Positions 1 to 5,457 of a stretch of DNA of 40,977 bases are shown one piece after another. Under the pieces are notes generated by a model that did no database searches, had not been told where the DNA came from, and saw only the letters and a list, made by a program, of their open reading frames with translations. The stretch lies in the IMG/VR virus record IMGVR_UViG_2563366910_000001. One strand, given 5' to 3'. A program made the position numbers and the translations under genes. This DNA comes from a virus (lineage: Duplodnaviria > Heunggongvirae > Uroviricota > Caudoviricetes). Within the stretch, counting starts at the first letter, position 1, and the number at the start of each line of letters is the position of its first letter.

Positions 1-1143
1 CTATGCTGTTTTGATATCTACGATAATCCAGTCTTTACCACGATCATCATTGTATCGGTCGGTCATTTTTCTGGATTTATGACCTAACAACTTTTGCGTA
101 TCCAGACCCTGTTCCCGATATAACCGTTCTGACAGAGATCGCTGCTCATGAAATGTGGGCGCAGTTCCTGGCTCCCATTTTATGCCACATTTTTCCCTGG
201 CCTTTTTAAAAGCCGTTGTAAGAGTATTTGCAGACACCTGGTCTCCTCTGTTTGCTTGAGAGGTAGTGTGACGGTAATGGACCAGATATTTACTAACAAC
301 AGCATCCCTGCACTGAGATATAACTTCACGAAGGGTAATATTCAGAGCATCGCATTTCAGGTTAAGCGGAATAGCAAGTTTTGAACCGGTTTTTTCCTGA
401 GTAATGTGCAACATGTCGTCCCAGATATCAGAGAATTTCAAATTGCAGATATCGCCTAAACGTTGTCCAGTGACAAGAGCAAGTAGCATCCCGCATTTTA
501 AATAGGGCTGCCGTCTGCTTACGCTGTCAAATATTGCCTGCCATTCGGGCAGTGATAATCTTTGGCGGTTTACTCGATTTCGCGGTTGTTTTGTTGCCTG
601 CGCTGGGTTAAATCCTGGCGGAACATGTCCTGCGTGTTGTGCTTCTTTGAAGACGTCGATCAACACCATTCTCACGACTTGCGCCATCCTGTTATGACCT
701 TCAGCCTTTACAGCATCAATTATTTCGGCAATATCAAGTGCGGTAATATCCTTGAGGTGTTGCATTCCACAATGCTCACGGAAAAGACGAATGGGTTTGC
801 CTTTTTGCCGATAGGAGTTGGGTCTTAGTTCATTATGTTGCAGCCTGTCCTCCTGGATAGAAATATATTTATCAAGCCATTCTGTCACCGTAATGTCTGA
901 GCGCCTGCCTTTCATTCTTTCTAGACGCTCATTGACGCTTAATATTTGTCGGGTACGTTGTTCAGCAATAATGGTATTTGCTTCAGTAGCAACTTGTTTT
1001 GCTTCATTCTCATCAGTTCCTAAGCTATGAAAACGACCGGATAGTGGATGTTTGTATTGCCAATATACCTTTCCGGTTCGCTTATCTAATTTGCAATATA
1101 AATTGGGTATAGAGATTTTGTGAGATCGGGGTCTAGCAGCCAT
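1..1143 (-). CDS. int: Tyrosine recombinase, phage integrase (lambda Int family)
   Basis: 380-aa ORF ending at the window edge. C-terminal catalytic region resembles lambda Int (TFHEQRSLSERLY...LLGHKS...MTDRYNDDRG with the terminal Tyr), as recalled. First gene of the prophage, with xis overlapping upstream. Confidence 0.92.
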   Translation of the reverse strand: MAARPRSHKISIPNLYCKLDKRTGKVYWQYKHPLSGRFHSLGTDENEAKQVATEANTIIAEQRTRQILSVNERLERMKGRRSDITVTEWLDKYISIQEDRLQHNELRPNSYRQKGKPIRLFREHCGMQHLKDITALDIAEIIDAVKAEGHNRMAQVVRMVLIDVFKEAQHAGHVPPGFNPAQATKQPRNRVNRQRLSLPEWQAIFDSVSRRQPYLKCGMLLALVTGQRLGDICNLKFSDIWDDMLHITQEKTGSKLAIPLNLKCDALNITLREVISQCRDAVVSKYLVHYRHTTSQANRGDQVSANTLTTAFKKAREKCGIKWEPGTAPTFHEQRSLSERLYREQGLDTQKLLGHKSRKMTDRYNDDRGKDWIIVDIKTA

Positions 1144-1369
1144 CAGCGATTATCCGTTGGAGTTTTGGGTTTGCGTTTATTGGGAGTTGCGGTTCTGCAA
1201 GCGTTCCTACAAAACGGGAATTTCGGTCAATCATCCAGTAGCGACCAACTTTTATAGCGGGTGGGGCCATCATTTTCCCTTGCGCGTATTTTTTCAGAAC
1301 TCGCTCACTTGGTGCTAAGTCCCCAAATTCTTCTTTAGCCCAGTCCTGTAAAGTGATTAGTCGAGACAT
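1133..1369 (-). CDS. xis: Excisionase (Xis-like)
   Basis: 78-aa ORF overlapping the int start by 11 nt. Small basic protein in the canonical position upstream of int; N-terminal LITLQDWA motif resembles lambda Xis LTLQEWNA as recalled. Confidence 0.75.
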   Translation of the reverse strand: MSRLITLQDWAKEEFGDLAPSERVLKKYAQGKMMAPPAIKVGRYWMIDRNSRFVGTLAEPQLPINANPKLQRIIADGC

Positions 1370-1508
1370 TTGTCCTCCTCTTAGCTGCTGAGGGAGTTTG
1401 TGACCGATATATCTGACATGATATTAAGCTCATGGCAGGTACATCTCTTGACTGGTCATAGAGATAAATTTAATGCTGAGAAATGCAGTATTGAATTTAT
1501 CAATTTTT

Positions 1509-1748
1509 CTATTTCCTGCGTATGGCACGTAACTTCTTAATGTGTTCTGCTGTTTCGATCTCTTCAGCTATCCGATCTGCGTCAGCTTTATTCACAGGTT
1601 CAAAGTCATGATTAAAGCGGAACATGCTGGCGATACATGTTCTGCCTTTTCGGATGTAGTGAACTTTGTTGTGAGTGGAACGCAGGATTTTGCAGGGAGT
1701 GCCGTGGTGGTCGACGTACCAGGTGTTAGGGTAAATCACTCTGAACAT
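1509..1748 (-). CDS. Hypothetical early-left protein (79 aa)
   Basis: ORF in the leftward operon orientation between xis and the accessory genes; no motif recognised. Confidence 0.45.
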   Translation of the reverse strand: MFRVIYPNTWYVDHHGTPCKILRSTHNKVHYIRKGRTCIASMFRFNHDFEPVNKADADRIAEEIETAEHIKKLRAIRRK

Positions 1749-1773
1749 TCTTGACCTTGTGTTGTGCGGATTG

Positions 1774-2058
1774 TTATTCAGTGCCGATATTTACCTTTAT
1801 CGCGTATACCTTTACCGGTTTATCACCGAAGTGCGGATGTGTGATTGTCTTCACTTCATATCCGTCATACGGAACATCAACTCTGCGGCTGGAATCGTCG
1901 CGCTTCGGATATCCCTTTGTGATAATCAGGCGGTCATGCTTACGGTTAACGAGGCGCTTTTTCCAGTAGTCATTACACAGGCGATACTCTTCCGTTTTCT
2001 CTCCGCGAATCATGGCATCGAAGTATTCACCTTTAACGGCAAGTTGCAGGTTAGCCAC
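1774..2058 (-). CDS. ASCH-like small protein (GxKxxExR motif)
   Basis: Proposed GTG start at 2056-2058, preceded on the minus strand by AAGGAG with a 6-nt spacer. Protein contains EYFDAMIRGEKTEEYR, matching the ASCH-type GxKxxExR signature. An in-frame ATG at 2011-2013 would cut into this motif. Confidence 0.5.
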   Translation of the reverse strand: MANLQLAVKGEYFDAMIRGEKTEEYRLCNDYWKKRLVNRKHDRLIITKGYPKRDDSSRRVDVPYDGYEVKTITHPHFGDKPVKVYAIKVNIGTE

Positions 2059-2791
2059 GGTTAACTCCTTGCTGTGTGGCGTCGAGTAATAAATCCCACA
2101 ACCGCTGAGAGCAATTTCCGCATGTACAGCGTTGACCCACAACGTTTATCGCGTTGCTGATTTCCGGCGTTACCTGTTTAGGAACCATAACCCAACCATC
2201 CGGAGTTACCGGAAGCGAGAACGGCAGCACATCTCTGTGAACAAGTTTTTGCTGTGACAGGTTATCCAGAACTTTCTGTACTGCTGCATCACCGAATACA
2301 CCAAGCGCATCTGCCATAACTCCTACAACCTGATAAGCCTCAGCGCATACCGTGGATAAACCATCCGGAATTACCGGAGAGTTGCCGGGTTCTTTAATGT
2401 GCAAGCGAGGCTCACCATCTTTTGGCTCAGGCCACTGGCGCTCCATGTTGATCTTCAATTTATCTTCCATAGCAACGGTAATTTCAGCATCGCTGATGCC
2501 AGCACGGCGCTGTGCATCCCACAACAGAAACTGCATATCAGCCCACTCGCTAAGATCGTCTGGTTCGGCTGCGGCTTCCAGTGCCTCTTTTGAGAGGTGT
2601 TTCAGTGGACCAATGGGGCCAACGCAGCCAAATGTGGAGTCAGACCATTTGGCATGCTCGTGGCGAATCTGTTCGCGTTCCAGTGATGCCAGTGCAATTC
2701 GTGCTAGTTCCATTTGTTCGCCACGAGTAAGCCCGTTTTCAAGCGGATTTTTAATGAACAATTCAATACGTTCTTTGGTAATAGTGGTCAT
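2051..2791 (-). CDS. Hypothetical early-left protein (246 aa) with PVIPDG-type motifs
   Basis: Long ORF in operon orientation; stop overlaps the start of the downstream ASCH-like gene. Contains NSPVIPDGL and PVTPDGW motifs shared with neighbouring genes. Confidence 0.55.
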   Translation of the reverse strand: MTTITKERIELFIKNPLENGLTRGEQMELARIALASLEREQIRHEHAKWSDSTFGCVGPIGPLKHLSKEALEAAAEPDDLSEWADMQFLLWDAQRRAGISDAEITVAMEDKLKINMERQWPEPKDGEPRLHIKEPGNSPVIPDGLSTVCAEAYQVVGVMADALGVFGDAAVQKVLDNLSQQKLVHRDVLPFSLPVTPDGWVMVPKQVTPEISNAINVVGQRCTCGNCSQRLWDLLLDATQQGVNRG

Positions 2792-2997
2792 GTGTTAATC
2801 CTCAAAACTTTATGCCCGGGCGCAAAAGTACGTGTTTTGTCTTTGCTTATTCGCCACCCGTCTTTACGGGCCTCTTTTGCACAACCAGACCATGACGTAC
2901 CGATATACTCACCGAAGTCTGGCACTGGATATACACCTTCCGTACACTGGCGACAATCACAATAGAGATGCATGGTGTAACTTGCGGCAATAGCCAT
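2788..2997 (-). CDS. Cys-rich small protein (69 aa)
   Basis: ATG at 2995-2997 lies 1 nt after the upstream TGA (2999-3001). Contains a CDCRQC cluster; possible zinc-binding. 3' end overlaps the next gene by 4 nt. Confidence 0.45.
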   Translation of the reverse strand: MAIAASYTMHLYCDCRQCTEGVYPVPDFGEYIGTSWSGCAKEARKDGWRISKDKTRTFAPGHKVLRINT

Positions 2998-2998
2998 A

Positions 2999-3607
2999 TC
3001 ACTCTCTTTTTCCCTGAAGCATGGCAGCGTGGCAGGCATCCTCTACGCCCTTAACTGCATCTGCGCAGTAGTTATAGCGATTGCATTCCACTAACTTCTG
3101 CCTGAGATTTTCAATTGCTTGCGCGACATCAGCCTGTATTACAGGAACTGGCGGAACGGCTGTCTGCTGCTCTCGAACGTCATTAGTCGCTATCGGTTCT
3201 GCTGCCAACTGACTGGCATATTTGTTAATGGTAACGATAAGCTCTTGCTCAGCCTCATCCAGACAATCACCGATACCTCGCCTGTCGCCGTCAAAATCAT
3301 CGAAATCAGCACGAACTCTGGCAAATTTCAGGATTGCGGACAACACCTCACCAGGAATTACCGGAGAGTTGGTTGACGTTTCCGAAATTTCCCGAAAATT
3401 ATTGGTTGACGAATTCGCGTTTTCCCGAAAGTTTCCGGCATGAAGCATAGCCGCGCGGCAGGCGTTCCAGCCTCTCACCTCTGCAATAGCGGCAACAGCA
3501 TCGACCGCGTACATGCTAAGAGGGTTAGGCATTGGTTTTTCTTCAGGTACTACTGGCACTGGCTTGGCATATATAGCGGCTGAACATACCAACCCTTTGA
3601 TAACCAA
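2999..3607 (-). CDS. Hypothetical early-left protein (up to 202 aa)
   Basis: ORF in operon orientation with PVPVVPEE and NSPVIPGEV motifs. Start uncertain: in-frame Met codons at 3607, 3532 and 3514, and the upstream gene stops at 3550. Confidence 0.5.
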   Translation of the reverse strand: MVIKGLVCSAAIYAKPVPVVPEEKPMPNPLSMYAVDAVAAIAEVRGWNACRAAMLHAGNFRENANSSTNNFREISETSTNSPVIPGEVLSAILKFARVRADFDDFDGDRRGIGDCLDEAEQELIVTINKYASQLAAEPIATNDVREQQTAVPPVPVIQADVAQAIENLRQKLVECNRYNYCADAVKGVEDACHAAMLQGKRE

Positions 3608-3804
3608 CTGTCAGCAATGTTTTTACTCCTCGTTATTGCCGGAATACCTAAGCCATTGTCTGAATGCAGCCATGCCACCGGATTCTCTTCCAGCGATGCC
3701 AGAGCAATTTCATAAGCCCGGCGCTCAACATTGTCTCGCACATCCAAACTGCTGATACGCTCTTTGATTTCTTTAATCAGTTCTTTGTCGGTAAAAGTGC
3801 TCAT
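3550..3804 (-). CDS. Hypothetical small protein (84 aa)
   Basis: ATG at 3802-3804 lies 1 nt after the upstream stop (3806-3808), the same TGAtATG junction as at 2995-3001. Confidence 0.4.
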   Translation of the reverse strand: MSTFTDKELIKEIKERISSLDVRDNVERRAYEIALASLEENPVAWLHSDNGLGIPAITRSKNIADSWLSKGWYVQPLYMPSQCQ

Positions 3805-3805
3805 A

Positions 3806-4173
3806 TCAATCTCCATTGGTATCAATGTTTACAGCCTGACAAGACTCTTTGAGCACCCAGTCAATAGCGTCTTTCCATGCCTCTGTTTCGACTGGTGGAT
3901 TTTCACGCTTAACCTGTTCATAGAAGCGCACTGCTTTAACCAGTCCTTCCGGTACTACTGGTGATGGCTGTTTAGCTTCTAAATCAGCAATTCTGTCAAC
4001 CACGGCATCGACAGCATCTGAAAAGCCGAACCAGTTGCTCCACTCCGGCTCATCCCCGGTTGCTGCAAAGTACATATCTGCTAAAGCAGATTCAGCATGG
4101 TCACGCTCGTTAATGAGTTGCTCTTCGCTTTTCTCCAGTTCAGCAATACGCTTACCCCCATCCGAGATAACAC
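3806..4173 (-). pseudogene. 5'-truncated early-left gene interrupted by IS911
   Basis: The ORF 3806..4222 continues 49 nt into the IS911 left inverted repeat, so its first ~16 codons are IS-derived. The native portion (coiled-coil-like, with a PSPVVPEGL motif) begins at the IS boundary. Confidence 0.5.
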
Positions 4174-4245
4174 TGAAGTGGTTTACTGAATTTGGCCACC
4201 TGAACAGAGGTGATATGCTCACCTCAGAACAACACAGGTGCCATA

Positions 4246-5393
<1,148 letters not shown>

Positions 5394-5457
5394 CTCGGTG
5401 GCCAGTTTTTGTTGACCACTTCAATTCACCCCTACAGAGAGCAAAAGAGAAACGCCG

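What the first reader, a model, noticed from the sequence alone, without database searches (positions are those of the whole stretch)
2051..4173. Recurrent N/S-P-V-I/V-P-D/E-G peptide motif and an identical 18-nt DNA segment across consecutive early-left genes
Three adjacent genes encode the same short proline-containing motif: NSPVIPDGL and PVTPDGW (2051..2791), PVPVVPEE, NSPVIPGEV and PVPVIQ (2999..3607), and PSPVVPEGL (3806..4173). At DNA level, GGAATTACCGGAGAGTTG is identical at 2367-2384 and 3354-3371. Two gene junctions also use the same TGAtATG stop/start heptamer (2995-3001 and 3802-3808). Possible explanations are a shared short linear interaction motif or repeated modular shuffling within a paralogous accessory family.
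Basis: seen in the sequence. Interest (0 to 1): 0.4.

Follow-up and report, generated by a model that had tools for sequence, protein, structure and literature searches.

The report
Conserved linker where phage protein domains swap
The repeated proline motif is a short linker between protein domains, written in nearly the same DNA in hundreds of prophages, and it marks the points where unrelated domains of early phage proteins have been exchanged in frame.

Summary
GGAATTACCGGAGAGTTG occurs at 2367-2384 and 3354-3371. It is the only exact direct repeat of 16 nt or more in the 41-kb window (0.012 expected). PV[IVT]P occurs five times in these minus-strand genes.

The three genes are not paralogues, because their similarity is confined to the motifs. 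The motifs fall into two related linker classes: (G)NSPV[IT]P[DG][GE] and P[AVS]PVVPE[EG]. They lie between domains. Pfam DUF550 ends at N137 and DUF551 starts at the GW of PVTPDGW. AlphaFold confidence collapses at 139-143 and 183-207.

In other prophages the class-1 linker joins 48 unrelated upstream flank families to 53 downstream ones in 101 combinations. A codon-free scan found only variants within 2 nt of one 27-mer, so this is one DNA lineage and not convergent peptides. Homology to relatives stops at every motif site.

The best explanation is an in-frame joint for domain shuffling, probably by short-homology recombination. The short-linear-motif reading has no support. TGAtATG is not significantly enriched.

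In this window one gene is frameshifted and another is cut by an IS element.

The principle is known. I found no prior description of this particular joint.

The parts
2357..2384 (-). Class-1 linker, copy 1: NSPVIPDGL (residues 137-145 of the DUF550 protein). Contains the 18-mer at 2367-2384.
   Evidence: D2. Pfam DUF550 ends at residue 137. AF2 pLDDT is below 50 at 139-143. blastn HSP endpoints pile up at 2348-2395. k-mer context diversity reaches 7x7 flank families.
2192..2212 (-). Class-1 linker, copy 2: PVTPDGW (residues 194-200 of the same protein).
   Evidence: D2, 74% to copy 1. 52 HSP endpoints at 2192-2215. Strongest context-diversity peak, up to 20x8 families. Homologues carry at least 4 unrelated C-terminal modules after it. 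DUF551 starts at G199/W200 in homologues. AF2 low-confidence coil at 183-207.
3347..3371 (-). Class-1 linker, copy 3: NSPVIPGE (residues 80-87 of the 2999-3607 ORF). Contains the 18-mer at 3354-3371.
   Evidence: The PGAP pseudogene alignment in relatives ends at window 3353. tblastn matches of relatives begin at residues 53-55 in the 177-aa numbering. HSP endpoints at 3368-3379.
3539..3564 (-). Class-2 linker, copy 1: (K)PVPVVPEE.
   Evidence: D4. HSP endpoints at 3560-3571. Relatives join many N-side modules (..YAAPP[AV]) here to KPMPNPL.. or ATPENVEML...
3941..3969 (-). Class-2 linker, copy 2: (Q)PSPVVPEGL in the Ead/Ea22-like remnant (residue 202 of the intact 254-aa protein).
   Evidence: (D4, 83% to copy 1). 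HSP endpoints at 3944-3979. Natural recombinants join the same N side (DRIADLEAKQPS) to the C side of the other window copy (EKPMPNPLSMYAVDAV).
3134..3151 (-). Half-linker PVPVIQ.
   Evidence: Relatives read AVPPVPVTPDGWISC.. (full linker plus DUF551), AVPPVPEIQADV or AVPPIQADV. The window shares GTT CCN GTA A and then diverges. 35 HSP endpoints at 3128-3139.
2051..2791 (-). Gene for a 246-aa multi-module protein: N-terminal module, IALASLE joint, DUF550 (MazG-like dATP/dGTP pyrophosphohydrolase) domain, linker, two-helix module, linker, C-terminal module.
   Evidence: Pfam PF04447 E 8e-42, residues 42-137. Piecewise PHROG hits. AF2 pLDDT 79-94 for residues 1-120. Best fold match is cyanophage S-2L MazG-like pyrophosphohydrolase 7ODY, probability 1.00, TM 0.70 of the target.
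2999..3804 (-). One multi-module gene broken by a frameshift. Upstream ORF 3550-3804, downstream ORF 2999-3607 (possible restart ATG at 3532).
   Evidence: PGAP annotates the equivalent of 3353-3804 as 'frameshifted; missing C-terminus'. phrog_5117 is matched by 3550-3804 (profile positions 1-83) and by the start of 2999-3607 (positions 84-122). Intact relatives read ..GWYVQPLYIAKPVPVVPD...
3568..3569 (-). Frameshift site. One base of the TATATA run is missing relative to intact relatives (CTATATATAGCC versus CTATATATGCC on the coding strand). It lies two codons upstream of the class-2 linker.
   Evidence: and sequence.
3806..4173 (-). 3' remnant (last 121 codons plus stop) of an Ead/Ea22-like gene.
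   Evidence: 100% identical to the 3' part of WP_001289890.1 in relatives. Pfam Ead_Ea22 covers residues 2-146 of the intact protein.
2678..2698 (-). Second kind of joint: IALASLE (residues 32-38 of the DUF550 protein).
   Evidence: N-terminal modules swap before it. 23 HSP endpoints at 2672-2683. Context diversity up to 8x6. Representative hits begin at residues 24-39.
3688..3708 (-). IALASLE joint, second copy (residues 33-39 of the 3550-3804 ORF).
   Evidence: Context diversity up to 12x8. A-D BLASTP alignment.
3443..3472 (-). Third kind of joint: GWNACRAAML.
   Evidence: 46 HSP endpoints at 3464-3475. Context diversity 4x8. In relatives ..ACRAAMLQAG directly precedes NSPV[IT]P.
3011..3037 (-). 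ACHAAMLQG, second copy of that joint, at the C-terminus of the 2999-3607 ORF.
   Evidence: 45 HSP endpoints at 3008-3019. Context diversity 7x5.
2995..3001 (-). TGAtATG stop/start junction between the 2999-3607 ORF and the 69-aa gene 2788-2997.
   Evidence: The surrounding 14-mer GAGAGTGATATGGC occurs in 5x14 flank families, so it is an ordinary between-gene mosaic boundary.
3802..3808 (-). TGAtATG stop/start junction between the Ea22-like remnant and the 3550-3804 ORF.
   Evidence: The heptamer is not significantly enriched.
4171..5423 (+). IS3-family element (ISEc52-like) that truncates the Ea22-like gene. It is not part of the motif system but bounds the finding.
   Evidence: 99.9% identity over 1253 nt to the ISEc52 copies in relatives.

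Best explanation
The motif is a short proline-rich inter-domain linker of 'beads-on-a-string' early-left proteins of lambdoid prophages. These proteins combine Ead/Ea22-like, DUF550, DUF551 and many unnamed small modules. The linker comes in two related classes: (G)NSPV[IT]P[DG][GE] and P[AVS]PVVPE[EG].

Shown here:
- The linkers lie between independently folding or independently recognised domains.
- The linker is encoded by essentially one DNA sequence, GGC AAC TCT CCG GTA AYT CCK GAT GGT TGG, wherever it occurs.
- Unrelated modules are found in many combinations on both sides of it.
- Homology between relatives breaks within a few nucleotides of it.

Inferred: the 20-33-nt island of shared DNA is itself the crossover site. 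Short-homology recombination would act between co-resident phages and prophages, or between linker copies in one genome. The agent would be Red-beta/Rad52-like phage annealases or RecA. Because every copy is read in the same codon phase, each exchange gives an in-frame chimera, so domains are reassorted without breaking them.

The three window genes share the motif because each is such a chimera. Two of them have since decayed, one by a 1-nt frameshift and one by IS truncation.
For: Position at domain boundaries:
- Pfam DUF550 ends at N137. DUF551 starts at G199/W200 of PVTPDGW in homologues.
- In the AF2 model built on 137 sequences, the DUF550 part has pLDDT 79-94. Confidence falls below 50 at 139-143 and 183-207, both in non-regular stretches.

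Mosaic breakpoints:
- tblastn ranges of relatives end or begin at the motif residues.
- blastn HSP endpoints against 159 loci pile up at all six motif sites.
- An unbiased 14-mer context-diversity scan peaks at the motif sites, up to 20x8 flank families against a median of 1x1.
- Among 150 representatives drawn from 1.84 billion proteins, the matched stretch almost always ends at residues 134-153.

Combinatorial assortment:
- Searches show the same N side with different C sides and the reverse.
- 144 unique contexts of the linker DNA give 48 left and 53 right flank families in 101 combinations. Divergence points lie at -1..-8 on one side and +13..+29 on the other.
- After the DUF550 end, 32 representatives carry class 1 (22 different continuations) and at least 55 carry class 2 (47 continuations).
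- Natural recombinants join the N side of window copy 3941-3969 to the C side of window copy 3539-3564.

One DNA lineage:
- The same codons appear in all contexts.
- A codon-agnostic scan for NSPV[IT]PDGW found 112 contexts, all within 2 nt of one 27-mer. Ser is TCT in 111 of 112.

Crossovers inside the island:
- The I/T codon travels mostly with the C-side module: DUF551 82 T and 12 I, GEVLSAI 10 I and 0 T. The exceptions go both ways, and each N-side family carries both alleles.

Mechanistic plausibility:
- The minimal pairing segment is 23-27 bp for Red-beta and 31-34 bp for RecA. Red promotes mosaicism by relaxed homologous recombination (PMC3945230, PMC2327257).
- Relatives carry exo, bet and gam in the same operon.
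Against: - No recombination event was observed directly.
- The pattern could also arise if junctions form anywhere and selection keeps only those in linkers, with the linker DNA carried along by one partner.
- The exact identity between the two window copies is only 18 nt (21 of 23), below the published minimal pairing segments.
- The class-2 copies in the window are only 83% identical.
- The flexible-linker claim rests on Pfam boundaries and low AF2 confidence. The two downstream modules are themselves predicted with low confidence.
- Many of the loci are near-identical prophages, so raw endpoint counts are inflated. The family-level counts correct for this.
Confidence: 0.75

Rival explanations
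1. Short linear interaction motif: the exposed P-V-[IV]-P-[DE]-G peptide is a docking site for a host or phage protein, and it recurs because several early proteins must bind the same partner.
For: The peptide is proline-rich and lies in low-confidence, non-regular segments, which is where linear motifs usually sit. It is well conserved at the peptide level across many proteins.
Against: Conservation extends to synonymous positions, and all instances are within 2 nt of one 27-mer. That indicates shared descent of DNA, not selection on a peptide reached independently. Every instance coincides with a mosaic breakpoint and a domain boundary. The C-terminal half varies with the following module (DG, GE, EE, DS). 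Half-sites such as PVPVIQ persist. No candidate partner is known, and no paper mentions the peptide. This reading is not exclusive of the linker reading.
Confidence: 0.1
2. Selection-only mosaicism: illegitimate recombination happens everywhere, and only junctions that fall in inter-domain linkers survive. The linker DNA plays no role in the exchange and is simply inherited with one of the partners.
For: This is the prevalent model for phage mosaicism, as summarised in PMC2327257. The half-linker PVPVIQ and the indel variants AVPPIQ / AVPPVPEIQ look like imprecise events. So does the frameshift two codons from a linker.
Against: Illegitimate joints should each have their own sequence. Here 48x53 flank families share one 20-33-nt island bounded sharply on both sides, including the same rare codons TCT and GTA. 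The internal I/T polymorphism recombines with both flanks.
Confidence: 0.12
3. Chance, low complexity or whole-gene paralogy: the genes are tandem duplicates, or the repeat is a compositional accident.
For: The genes are adjacent, on the same strand and in the same reading phase.
Against: Only 0.012 pairs of 18 nt or more are expected in the window, none of 100 shuffles gave a match, and this is the only exact repeat of >=16 nt. BLASTP among the proteins finds no similarity outside the linkers. TRF finds no tandem array.
Confidence: 0.01
4. Sequence-specific DNA site: the small inverted repeat TCCGG-AATTA-CCGGA (2364-2378) inside the linker is recognised by a dedicated recombinase or nuclease.
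For: The inverted repeat is present in the commonest variants (CCG GTA AYT CCG GAT), as the sequences show.
Against: The window's second copy reads CCAGG-AATTA-CCGGA, and the whole GEVLSAI class uses CCT GGT, which breaks the stem. These are still junctions. Class-2 linkers lack the repeat. Divergence points are spread over about 30 nt rather than at one phosphodiester. No candidate enzyme was identified.
Confidence: 0.02

Closest known systems
Short conserved boundary ('linker') sequences of modular lambdoid-phage evolution, with Red-mediated relaxed homologous recombination (Martinsohn et al. 2008, PMC2327257; De Paepe et al. 2014, PMC3945230)
   Same: A short DNA stretch is shared by otherwise unrelated neighbours, lies at module boundaries, and has flanks assorted combinatorially. 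The island length of 20-33 nt is in the range of the Red-beta minimal pairing segment of 23-27 bp. Relatives carry exo, bet and gam in the same operon.
   Different: Here the joint is intragenic, always in one codon phase, and encodes a peptide linker between protein domains. It is present in several copies per gene and per genome. Recombination at it has not been demonstrated.
Mosaic Ea22 proteins and the 'portable' DUF551 domain (Sci Rep 2024, PMC10834534)
   Same: It is the same gene neighbourhood and the same families (Ead_Ea22, DUF551, DUF550/MazZ-like). That paper notes block-wise mosaicism and that DUF551 is found fused to many partners.
   Different: A term search of the paper's text found no mention of linkers, junctions, boundaries or recombination. 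It reports only that two variants share a 16-aa segment. The window's Ea22-like gene is a truncated remnant.
Demarcation motifs of polymorphic toxins (VENN in CdiA, PxxxxDPxGL in Rhs) and the glycine-rich motifs or 'His boxes' of T-even tail-fibre adhesins (from my own knowledge, not checked here)
   Same: A short conserved peptide and DNA motif marks the point where variable modules are exchanged by recombination, giving in-frame chimeras.
   Different: No toxin/immunity pairs and no arrays of orphan cassettes were noted in the regions examined (not specifically searched). Both the N-side and the C-side partners vary. The modules' functions are unknown apart from DUF550.
Pfam DUF550 (PF04447) dATP/dGTP pyrophosphohydrolase, MazG-like fold (cyanophage S-2L MazZ, PDB 7ODY)
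   Same: Residues 42-137 match the full profile at E 8e-42. The confident part of the AF2 model matches 7ODY (probability 1.00, target TM 0.70, 28% identity).
   Different: This names only one bead of one of the three genes. It does not explain the recurring motif.

Membership tests
Conserved recombination joint / module-boundary sequence of mosaic phages | Short DNA segment conserved among contexts that are otherwise unrelated | tested here: met
   144 unique contexts with 48 left and 53 right flank families share AACTCTCCGGTAAYTCC. The codon-agnostic scan gives only variants within 2 nt.
Conserved recombination joint / module-boundary sequence of mosaic phages | Located where homology between relatives starts or stops | tested here: met
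   HSP endpoints, tblastn ranges, k-mer context-diversity peaks, representative-library match ends.
Conserved recombination joint / module-boundary sequence of mosaic phages | Flanking modules occur in multiple combinations (reassortment on both sides) | tested here: met
   101 combinations. 14 left families have more than one right partner (maximum 10). 17 right families have more than one left partner (maximum 8).
Conserved recombination joint / module-boundary sequence of mosaic phages | Crossovers actually occur within the conserved segment and depend on its homology | not testable with these tools
   Only indirect evidence: divergence points bracket the island, and the internal I/T codon recombines with both flanks. 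Genetic crosses with a recoded linker are needed.
Flexible inter-domain protein linker | Lies between independently defined domains | tested here: met
   The PF04447 match ends at residue 137. PF04448 starts at residue 199 in P0010.
Flexible inter-domain protein linker | Lacks regular structure or is flexible | tested here: inconclusive
   AF2 pLDDT is below 50 and the chain is coil at 139-143 and 183-207, while DUF550 is confident. However, the downstream modules are also low-confidence. There is no experimental structure.
Short linear interaction motif (SLiM) | Peptide conserved by selection independently of the DNA, with synonymous variation or independent origins | tested here: not met
   All instances descend from one DNA sequence. 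Ser is TCT in 111 of 112 and never AGY.
Short linear interaction motif (SLiM) | A specific binding partner | not testable with these tools
   No partner is known. No paper mentions the peptide strings.
Paralogous gene family (tandem duplicates) | Similarity along the length of the proteins | tested here: not met
   BLASTP among the five window proteins finds only the linkers, plus a weak match between the N-terminal modules of the 2051-2791 and 3550-3804 proteins (E 0.026).
Pfam PF04447 (DUF550, dATP/dGTP pyrophosphohydrolase): gene 2051-2791 | Score above the Pfam gathering threshold over the whole profile | tested here: met
   141.8 bits against a cut-off of 23, profile positions 1-96 of 97. 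The fold matches MazG-like 7ODY. Catalytic activity was not tested.
Pfam PF13935 (Ead/Ea22-like): gene 3806-4173 | Match to the Ead_Ea22 profile | tested here: not met
   The window fragment has no Pfam hit. The intact allele in relatives matches at residues 2-146, and the window keeps only residues 134-254. So it is the tail of such a gene, not a functional member.
Polymorphic-toxin-type demarcation motif (VENN / DPxGL) | Variable C-terminal toxin with a cognate immunity gene, and orphan cassettes | not tested
   No toxin or immunity families appear in the Pfam, NCBIfam or PHROG results for these genes. The PADLOC and toxin libraries were not searched. The resemblance is in mechanism only.

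The most novel reading that the evidence does not exclude
The linker may not be a passive by-product. It could be a DNA-level 'in-frame splice site' maintained because it lets temperate enterobacterial phages reassort a large library of small early-protein domains. These domains might be host-takeover or anti-defence modules, which is speculation. In this reading the phage's own Red-type annealase is the engine. The linker would form a grammar of universal joints together with IALASLE, GWNACRAAML and AAAPQQEV. That would make it a phage counterpart of the VENN/DPxGL cassette-exchange systems of polymorphic toxins.
Probability: 0.2. Interest if true: 0.7.

Novelty: new member of a known kind. 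Interest (0 to 1): 0.45.

Why it matters
Whether phage mosaicism arises from homology-guided exchange or from random illegitimate joining followed by selection is a long-running question. Here a single sharply bounded island of 20-33 nt is shared by about 50 x 50 unrelated flanks. It contains an internal polymorphism that recombines with both sides. This gives a concrete and easily manipulated test case: recode the linker synonymously and measure in-frame recombinants with and without Red-beta or RecA.

There are two practical consequences. First, it explains why homology-based annotation fragments these genes. PGAP splits the 246-aa ORF and calls neighbouring pieces 'incomplete'. Second, the linkers give a simple rule for cutting these multi-domain early proteins into modules for functional study.

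Tried and rejected
- Tandem Repeats Finder on 1400-4300 found nothing.
- NCBIfam gave no family for the three genes.
- The first AF2 run, on a shallow alignment of 20 sequences at >=82% identity, was unusable (mean pLDDT 39). It was repeated with 137 diverse representatives.
- PDB sequence searches with the DUF550 protein and the intact Ea22-like protein found nothing.
- The genome-contig scan with the 17-mer returned mostly chance hits in unrelated phyla. By my estimate, about 140 are expected in 596 Gb. Only the in-frame hits followed by DGW, DGY and the like were used, and these are nearly all in Enterobacterales.
- The 15-base class-2 pattern also returned many chance or low-complexity proline-rich hits and had to be filtered by context.
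- TGAtATG as a meaningful shared signal was rejected: 11 found against 5.65 expected.
- The hairpin or site-specific-recombinase idea was rejected because the small inverted repeat is absent from many working joints.
- Literature searches for the peptide strings and for DUF550, DUF551 and Ea22 found no description of the joint.


Full report
**Context**

The window starts at the left end of a lambdoid prophage integrated next to icd. The integrase gene is at 1-1143 and the excisionase gene at 1133-1369. Early-left genes follow on the minus strand. Bases 1-4173 are 100% identical to the prophage of E. coli ATCC 25922. Bases 1700-4173, the part searched, are also identical in other E. coli genomes (for example ABU 83972) and in phages ev017 and PhiR57_1.

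The genes under the finding are:
- 2051-2791: a 246-aa protein with a DUF550 domain.
- 2788-2997: a 69-aa protein (phrog_926).
- 2999-3804: one gene broken by a frameshift into ORFs 3550-3804 and 2999-3607.
- 3806-4173: the last 121 codons of a 254-aa Ead/Ea22-like gene. It is cut by an ISEc52-like IS3-family element at 4171-5423.

**Checking the observation**

The 18-mer is exact at both stated positions. It has no further copy even with two mismatches, and none of 100 shuffles gave a match. It is the only exact direct repeat of >=16 nt in the window, where 0.012 pairs of >=18 nt are expected. It encodes N-S-P-V-I-P in both genes.

All peptide instances are present. PV[IVT]P occurs ten times in the six-frame translation of the 41 kb. 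Five of these are the listed instances. The other five are also on the minus strand, at positions where the long ORFs run on the plus strand.

The repeat finder independently grouped the DNA into two families:
- D2: 2197-2219, 2362-2384 and 3349-3371. These are class 1, NSPV[IT]P[DG][GE].
- D4: 3541-3564 and 3946-3969. These are class 2, P[VS]PVVPE[EG].

TGAtATG is present at both junctions. The heptamer occurs 11 times in the window against 5.65 expected, and 4 of 100 shuffles reached 11. It is an ordinary closely spaced stop/start.

**The genes are not paralogues**

BLASTP among the five proteins finds similarity only at the motifs:
- 2051-2791 against 2999-3607: anchored on NSPVIP, E 0.09.
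- 2051-2791 against the Ea22-like remnant: on SPV[IV]P[DE]GL, E 0.01.
- 2999-3607 against the Ea22-like remnant: on PVVPE.

The one exception is a weak match between the N-terminal modules of the 2051-2791 and 3550-3804 proteins, which includes IALASLE (E 0.026). PHROG hits to each protein are piecewise, with the pieces changing at the motif positions.

**The motifs are inter-domain linkers**

The Pfam DUF550 match covers residues 42-137 and ends at the N of NSPVIP. In homologues, DUF551 begins at G199/W200 of PVTPDGW.

An AF2 model built on 137 diverse sequences gives pLDDT 79-94 for the DUF550 part. The best PDB fold match is the MazG-like pyrophosphohydrolase of cyanophage S-2L, 7ODY. Confidence falls below 50 at 139-143 and 183-207. 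Both motifs lie in the two long non-helical stretches, 118-146 and 181-208. This structural evidence is suggestive only, because the downstream modules are also poorly predicted.

**The motifs are the mosaic breakpoints**

Close homologues of the 246-aa protein keep LPFSLPVTPDGW and then continue with at least four unrelated C-terminal modules. One of these is DUF551, in many variants. Different N-terminal modules also precede IALASLE.

tblastn ranges of relatives end at residues 144-157 or at 201 of this protein. For the next gene they begin at 53-55 or end at 127-131 in the 177-aa numbering, which are the motif positions.

blastn of 1700-4200 against 159 distinct loci puts intragenic HSP endpoints at these positions:

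| Window range | Endpoints | Motif |
|---|---|---|
| 2192-2215 | 52 | PVTPDGW |
| 2348-2395 | 34 | NSPVIPDGL |
| 3128-3139 | 35 | PVPVIQ |
| 3368-3379 | 13 | edge of the 18-mer |
| 3560-3571 | 16 | PVPVVPEE |
| 3944-3979 | 13 | PSPVVPEGL |

These counts are inflated by redundant prophages. I therefore scanned every 14-mer of 1760-4160 for the number of distinct flank families it has in loci that were fetched by protein homology, not by the linker. The median is 1x1. The peaks are the motif sites, up to 20x8 at 2192-2213 and 7x7 at 2371-2384 and 3358-3371. Two further joints also peak, IALASLE and GWNAC[RH]AAML, as do the gene starts.

In a search of 1.84 billion representative proteins, 3847 match at E <= 1e-3. 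Among the best 150, the matched stretch nearly always starts at residues 24-39 and ends at 134-153.

**Combinatorial assortment**

In loci retrieved by protein homology, at least 9 N-side modules and at least 5 C-side modules are joined by the class-1 linker in mixed combinations.

Wherever the reading frame is open around it, the sequence reads NSPV[IT]P, usually with G before it and DGW, DGL, GEV or EGY after it.

The 144 unique contexts fall into 48 left and 53 right flank families, in 101 combinations. Sequences sharing one side diverge at -1 to -8 on the N side, with a mode at -4. On the C side they diverge at +13 to +29, or at +50, after the conserved WISCSERMP start of DUF551. The shared island is therefore about 20-33 nt long.

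Downstream of the DUF550 end (PRLHIK), 32 representative proteins carry the class-1 linker, with 22 different continuations. At least 55 carry class 2 (QPAPVVP[DE]), with 47 continuations. Hybrids such as QPAPVIPDGWISCSE show that the two classes are related.

For class 2, natural recombinants join the Ea22-like N side (DRIADLEAKQPS) either to GLVKAVRFYEQ, as at window 3941-3969, or to EKPMPNPLSMYAVDAV, as at window 3539-3564.

PVPVIQ is a half-site. Relatives read AVPPVPVTPDGWISC.., AVPPVPEIQADV or AVPPIQADV.

**One DNA lineage, not convergent peptides**

In all contexts the codons are GGC AAC TCT CCG GTA AYT CCK GRT. A codon-agnostic scan for NSPV[IT]PDGW found 112 unique contexts with 20 distinct 27-mers. 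All are within 2 nt of AAC TCT CCG GTA AYT CCG GAT GGT TGG. Ser is TCT in 111 of 112 and never AGY.

In one-genome-per-species contigs, in-frame hits with the typical flanks occur in Escherichia, Klebsiella, Citrobacter, Kluyvera, Shimwellia, Trabulsiella, Entomohabitans and Brenneria. Two records are labelled otherwise (a Segatella copri MAG and a Chryseobacterium isolate). Hits in other phyla are out of frame or lack these flanks, at about the number I estimate by chance.

The internal I/T codon travels mainly with the C-side module. DUF551 has 82 T and 12 I, and GEVLSAI has 10 I and 0 T. There are exceptions in both directions, and each N-side family carries both alleles. This places crossovers within the island, on either side of that codon.

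**Mechanism**

Shown: the position between domains, the shared DNA, the sharp bounds of the island, and the reassortment on both sides.

Inferred: the island is itself the substrate of short-homology recombination. Published minimal pairing segments are 23-27 bp for Red-beta and 31-34 bp for RecA. Red-type recombinases have been shown to build mosaics by relaxed homologous recombination (PMC3945230, PMC2327257). Relatives of this prophage carry exo, bet and gam in the same operon. Those copies have no match in the window. Since all copies are in the same codon phase, each exchange is in frame.

The main rival is illegitimate joining with selection for linker positions. It fits the imprecise variants. 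It does not explain one conserved island across about 50x50 flanks.

The linear-motif reading has no positive evidence and is contradicted by the synonymous-site conservation. It is not mutually exclusive with the linker reading.

**State of the genes in this window**

The gene 3804->2999 lacks one base of a TATATA run at 3568/3569, two codons upstream of the class-2 linker. Intact relatives read ..GWYVQPLYIAKPVPVVPD... PGAP calls the equivalent region frameshifted and lacking its C-terminus, and its alignment ends at window 3353, the edge of the 18-mer. The Ea22-like gene is truncated by the IS. So in this window only the DUF550 gene is an intact linker-containing gene.

**Comparison with what is known**

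Mosaicism of Ea22 proteins and the portability of DUF551 have been described (PMC10834534). Short conserved boundary sequences and Red-driven mosaicism are established concepts.

I found no description of this joint. The peptide strings occur in no searchable paper, though subscription-only literature was not searchable.

In mechanism it resembles the demarcation motifs of polymorphic toxins and the glycine-rich motifs of T-even adhesins. That comparison rests on my own knowledge and was not tested here.

I rate it a new member of a known kind, of moderate interest.

Noticed in passing
window 4171-5423: An ISEc52-like IS3-family element (1253 nt, 99.9% identical to the copies in relatives) truncates the Ead/Ea22-like gene. 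The sequence to its right (5424 onward) does not match the ATCC 25922 prophage. The N-terminal 133 codons of that gene, and the TraR/DksA, DUF1382, DUF1317, exo, bet and gam genes seen in relatives, have no match in the window. Related prophages carry the same IS at other positions in this operon: in ATCC 25922 it is in the DUF1382 gene, and in THO-006 it lies between the pseudogene and the Ea22-like gene.
   Followed up: partly
window 3568-3569 (gene 2999-3804): A one-base loss in a TATATA run splits a multi-module gene into ORFs 3550-3804 and 2999-3607. The DNA just downstream of the site (CCA GTA GTA CCT) differs at synonymous sites from the intact relatives (CCG GTG GTG CCA). The frameshift therefore sits at the edge of a recombination joint and might date from that event.
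   Followed up: partly
window 3369-3400 and 3402-3433: An imperfect 33-nt tandem duplication (78% identity) encodes NFRENANSST / NFREISETST immediately upstream of the NSPVIPGE linker. In relatives ..AMLQAG is followed directly by NSPV[IT]P, so this looks like an insertion between 'AGN' and 'SPVIP'. TRF did not report it.
   Followed up: partly
Both are breakpoint and context-diversity peaks. Relatives also end modules with AAAPQQEV(K). Together with the proline linkers these look like a small grammar of joints.
   Followed up: partly
window 2051-2791 as annotated in relatives (L001 2852-3592, L002, L450): PGAP does not annotate the 246-aa ORF as one gene. It calls a shorter DUF550 CDS from an internal start, whose position differs between assemblies, plus a separate 126-nt 'incomplete' pseudogene for the N-terminal module. 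This appears to be an annotation artefact of the mosaic architecture.
   Followed up: no
window 2651-2667 / 2717-2733: A 17-nt inverted repeat (88% complementary, 49 nt apart) inside the N-terminal part of the DUF550 gene, flanking the IALASLE joint.
   Followed up: no
window 2991-3006: The 14-mer around the first TGAtATG (GAGAGTGATATGGC on the coding strand) occurs 67 times in the fetched loci, with 5x14 flank families. This between-gene boundary upstream of the 69-aa gene is itself a conserved mosaic joint.
   Followed up: partly
loci L334, L337, L340, L341, L360, L409, L414 (genome contigs): Several Bacteroidota genomes contain the same 17-mer in frame as ..G(S/A/K)T-NSPVTP-VF(M/L)KG.. inside what looks like a conserved chromosomal gene. 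It is unrelated to the phage linker and is a coincidental match.
   Followed up: no
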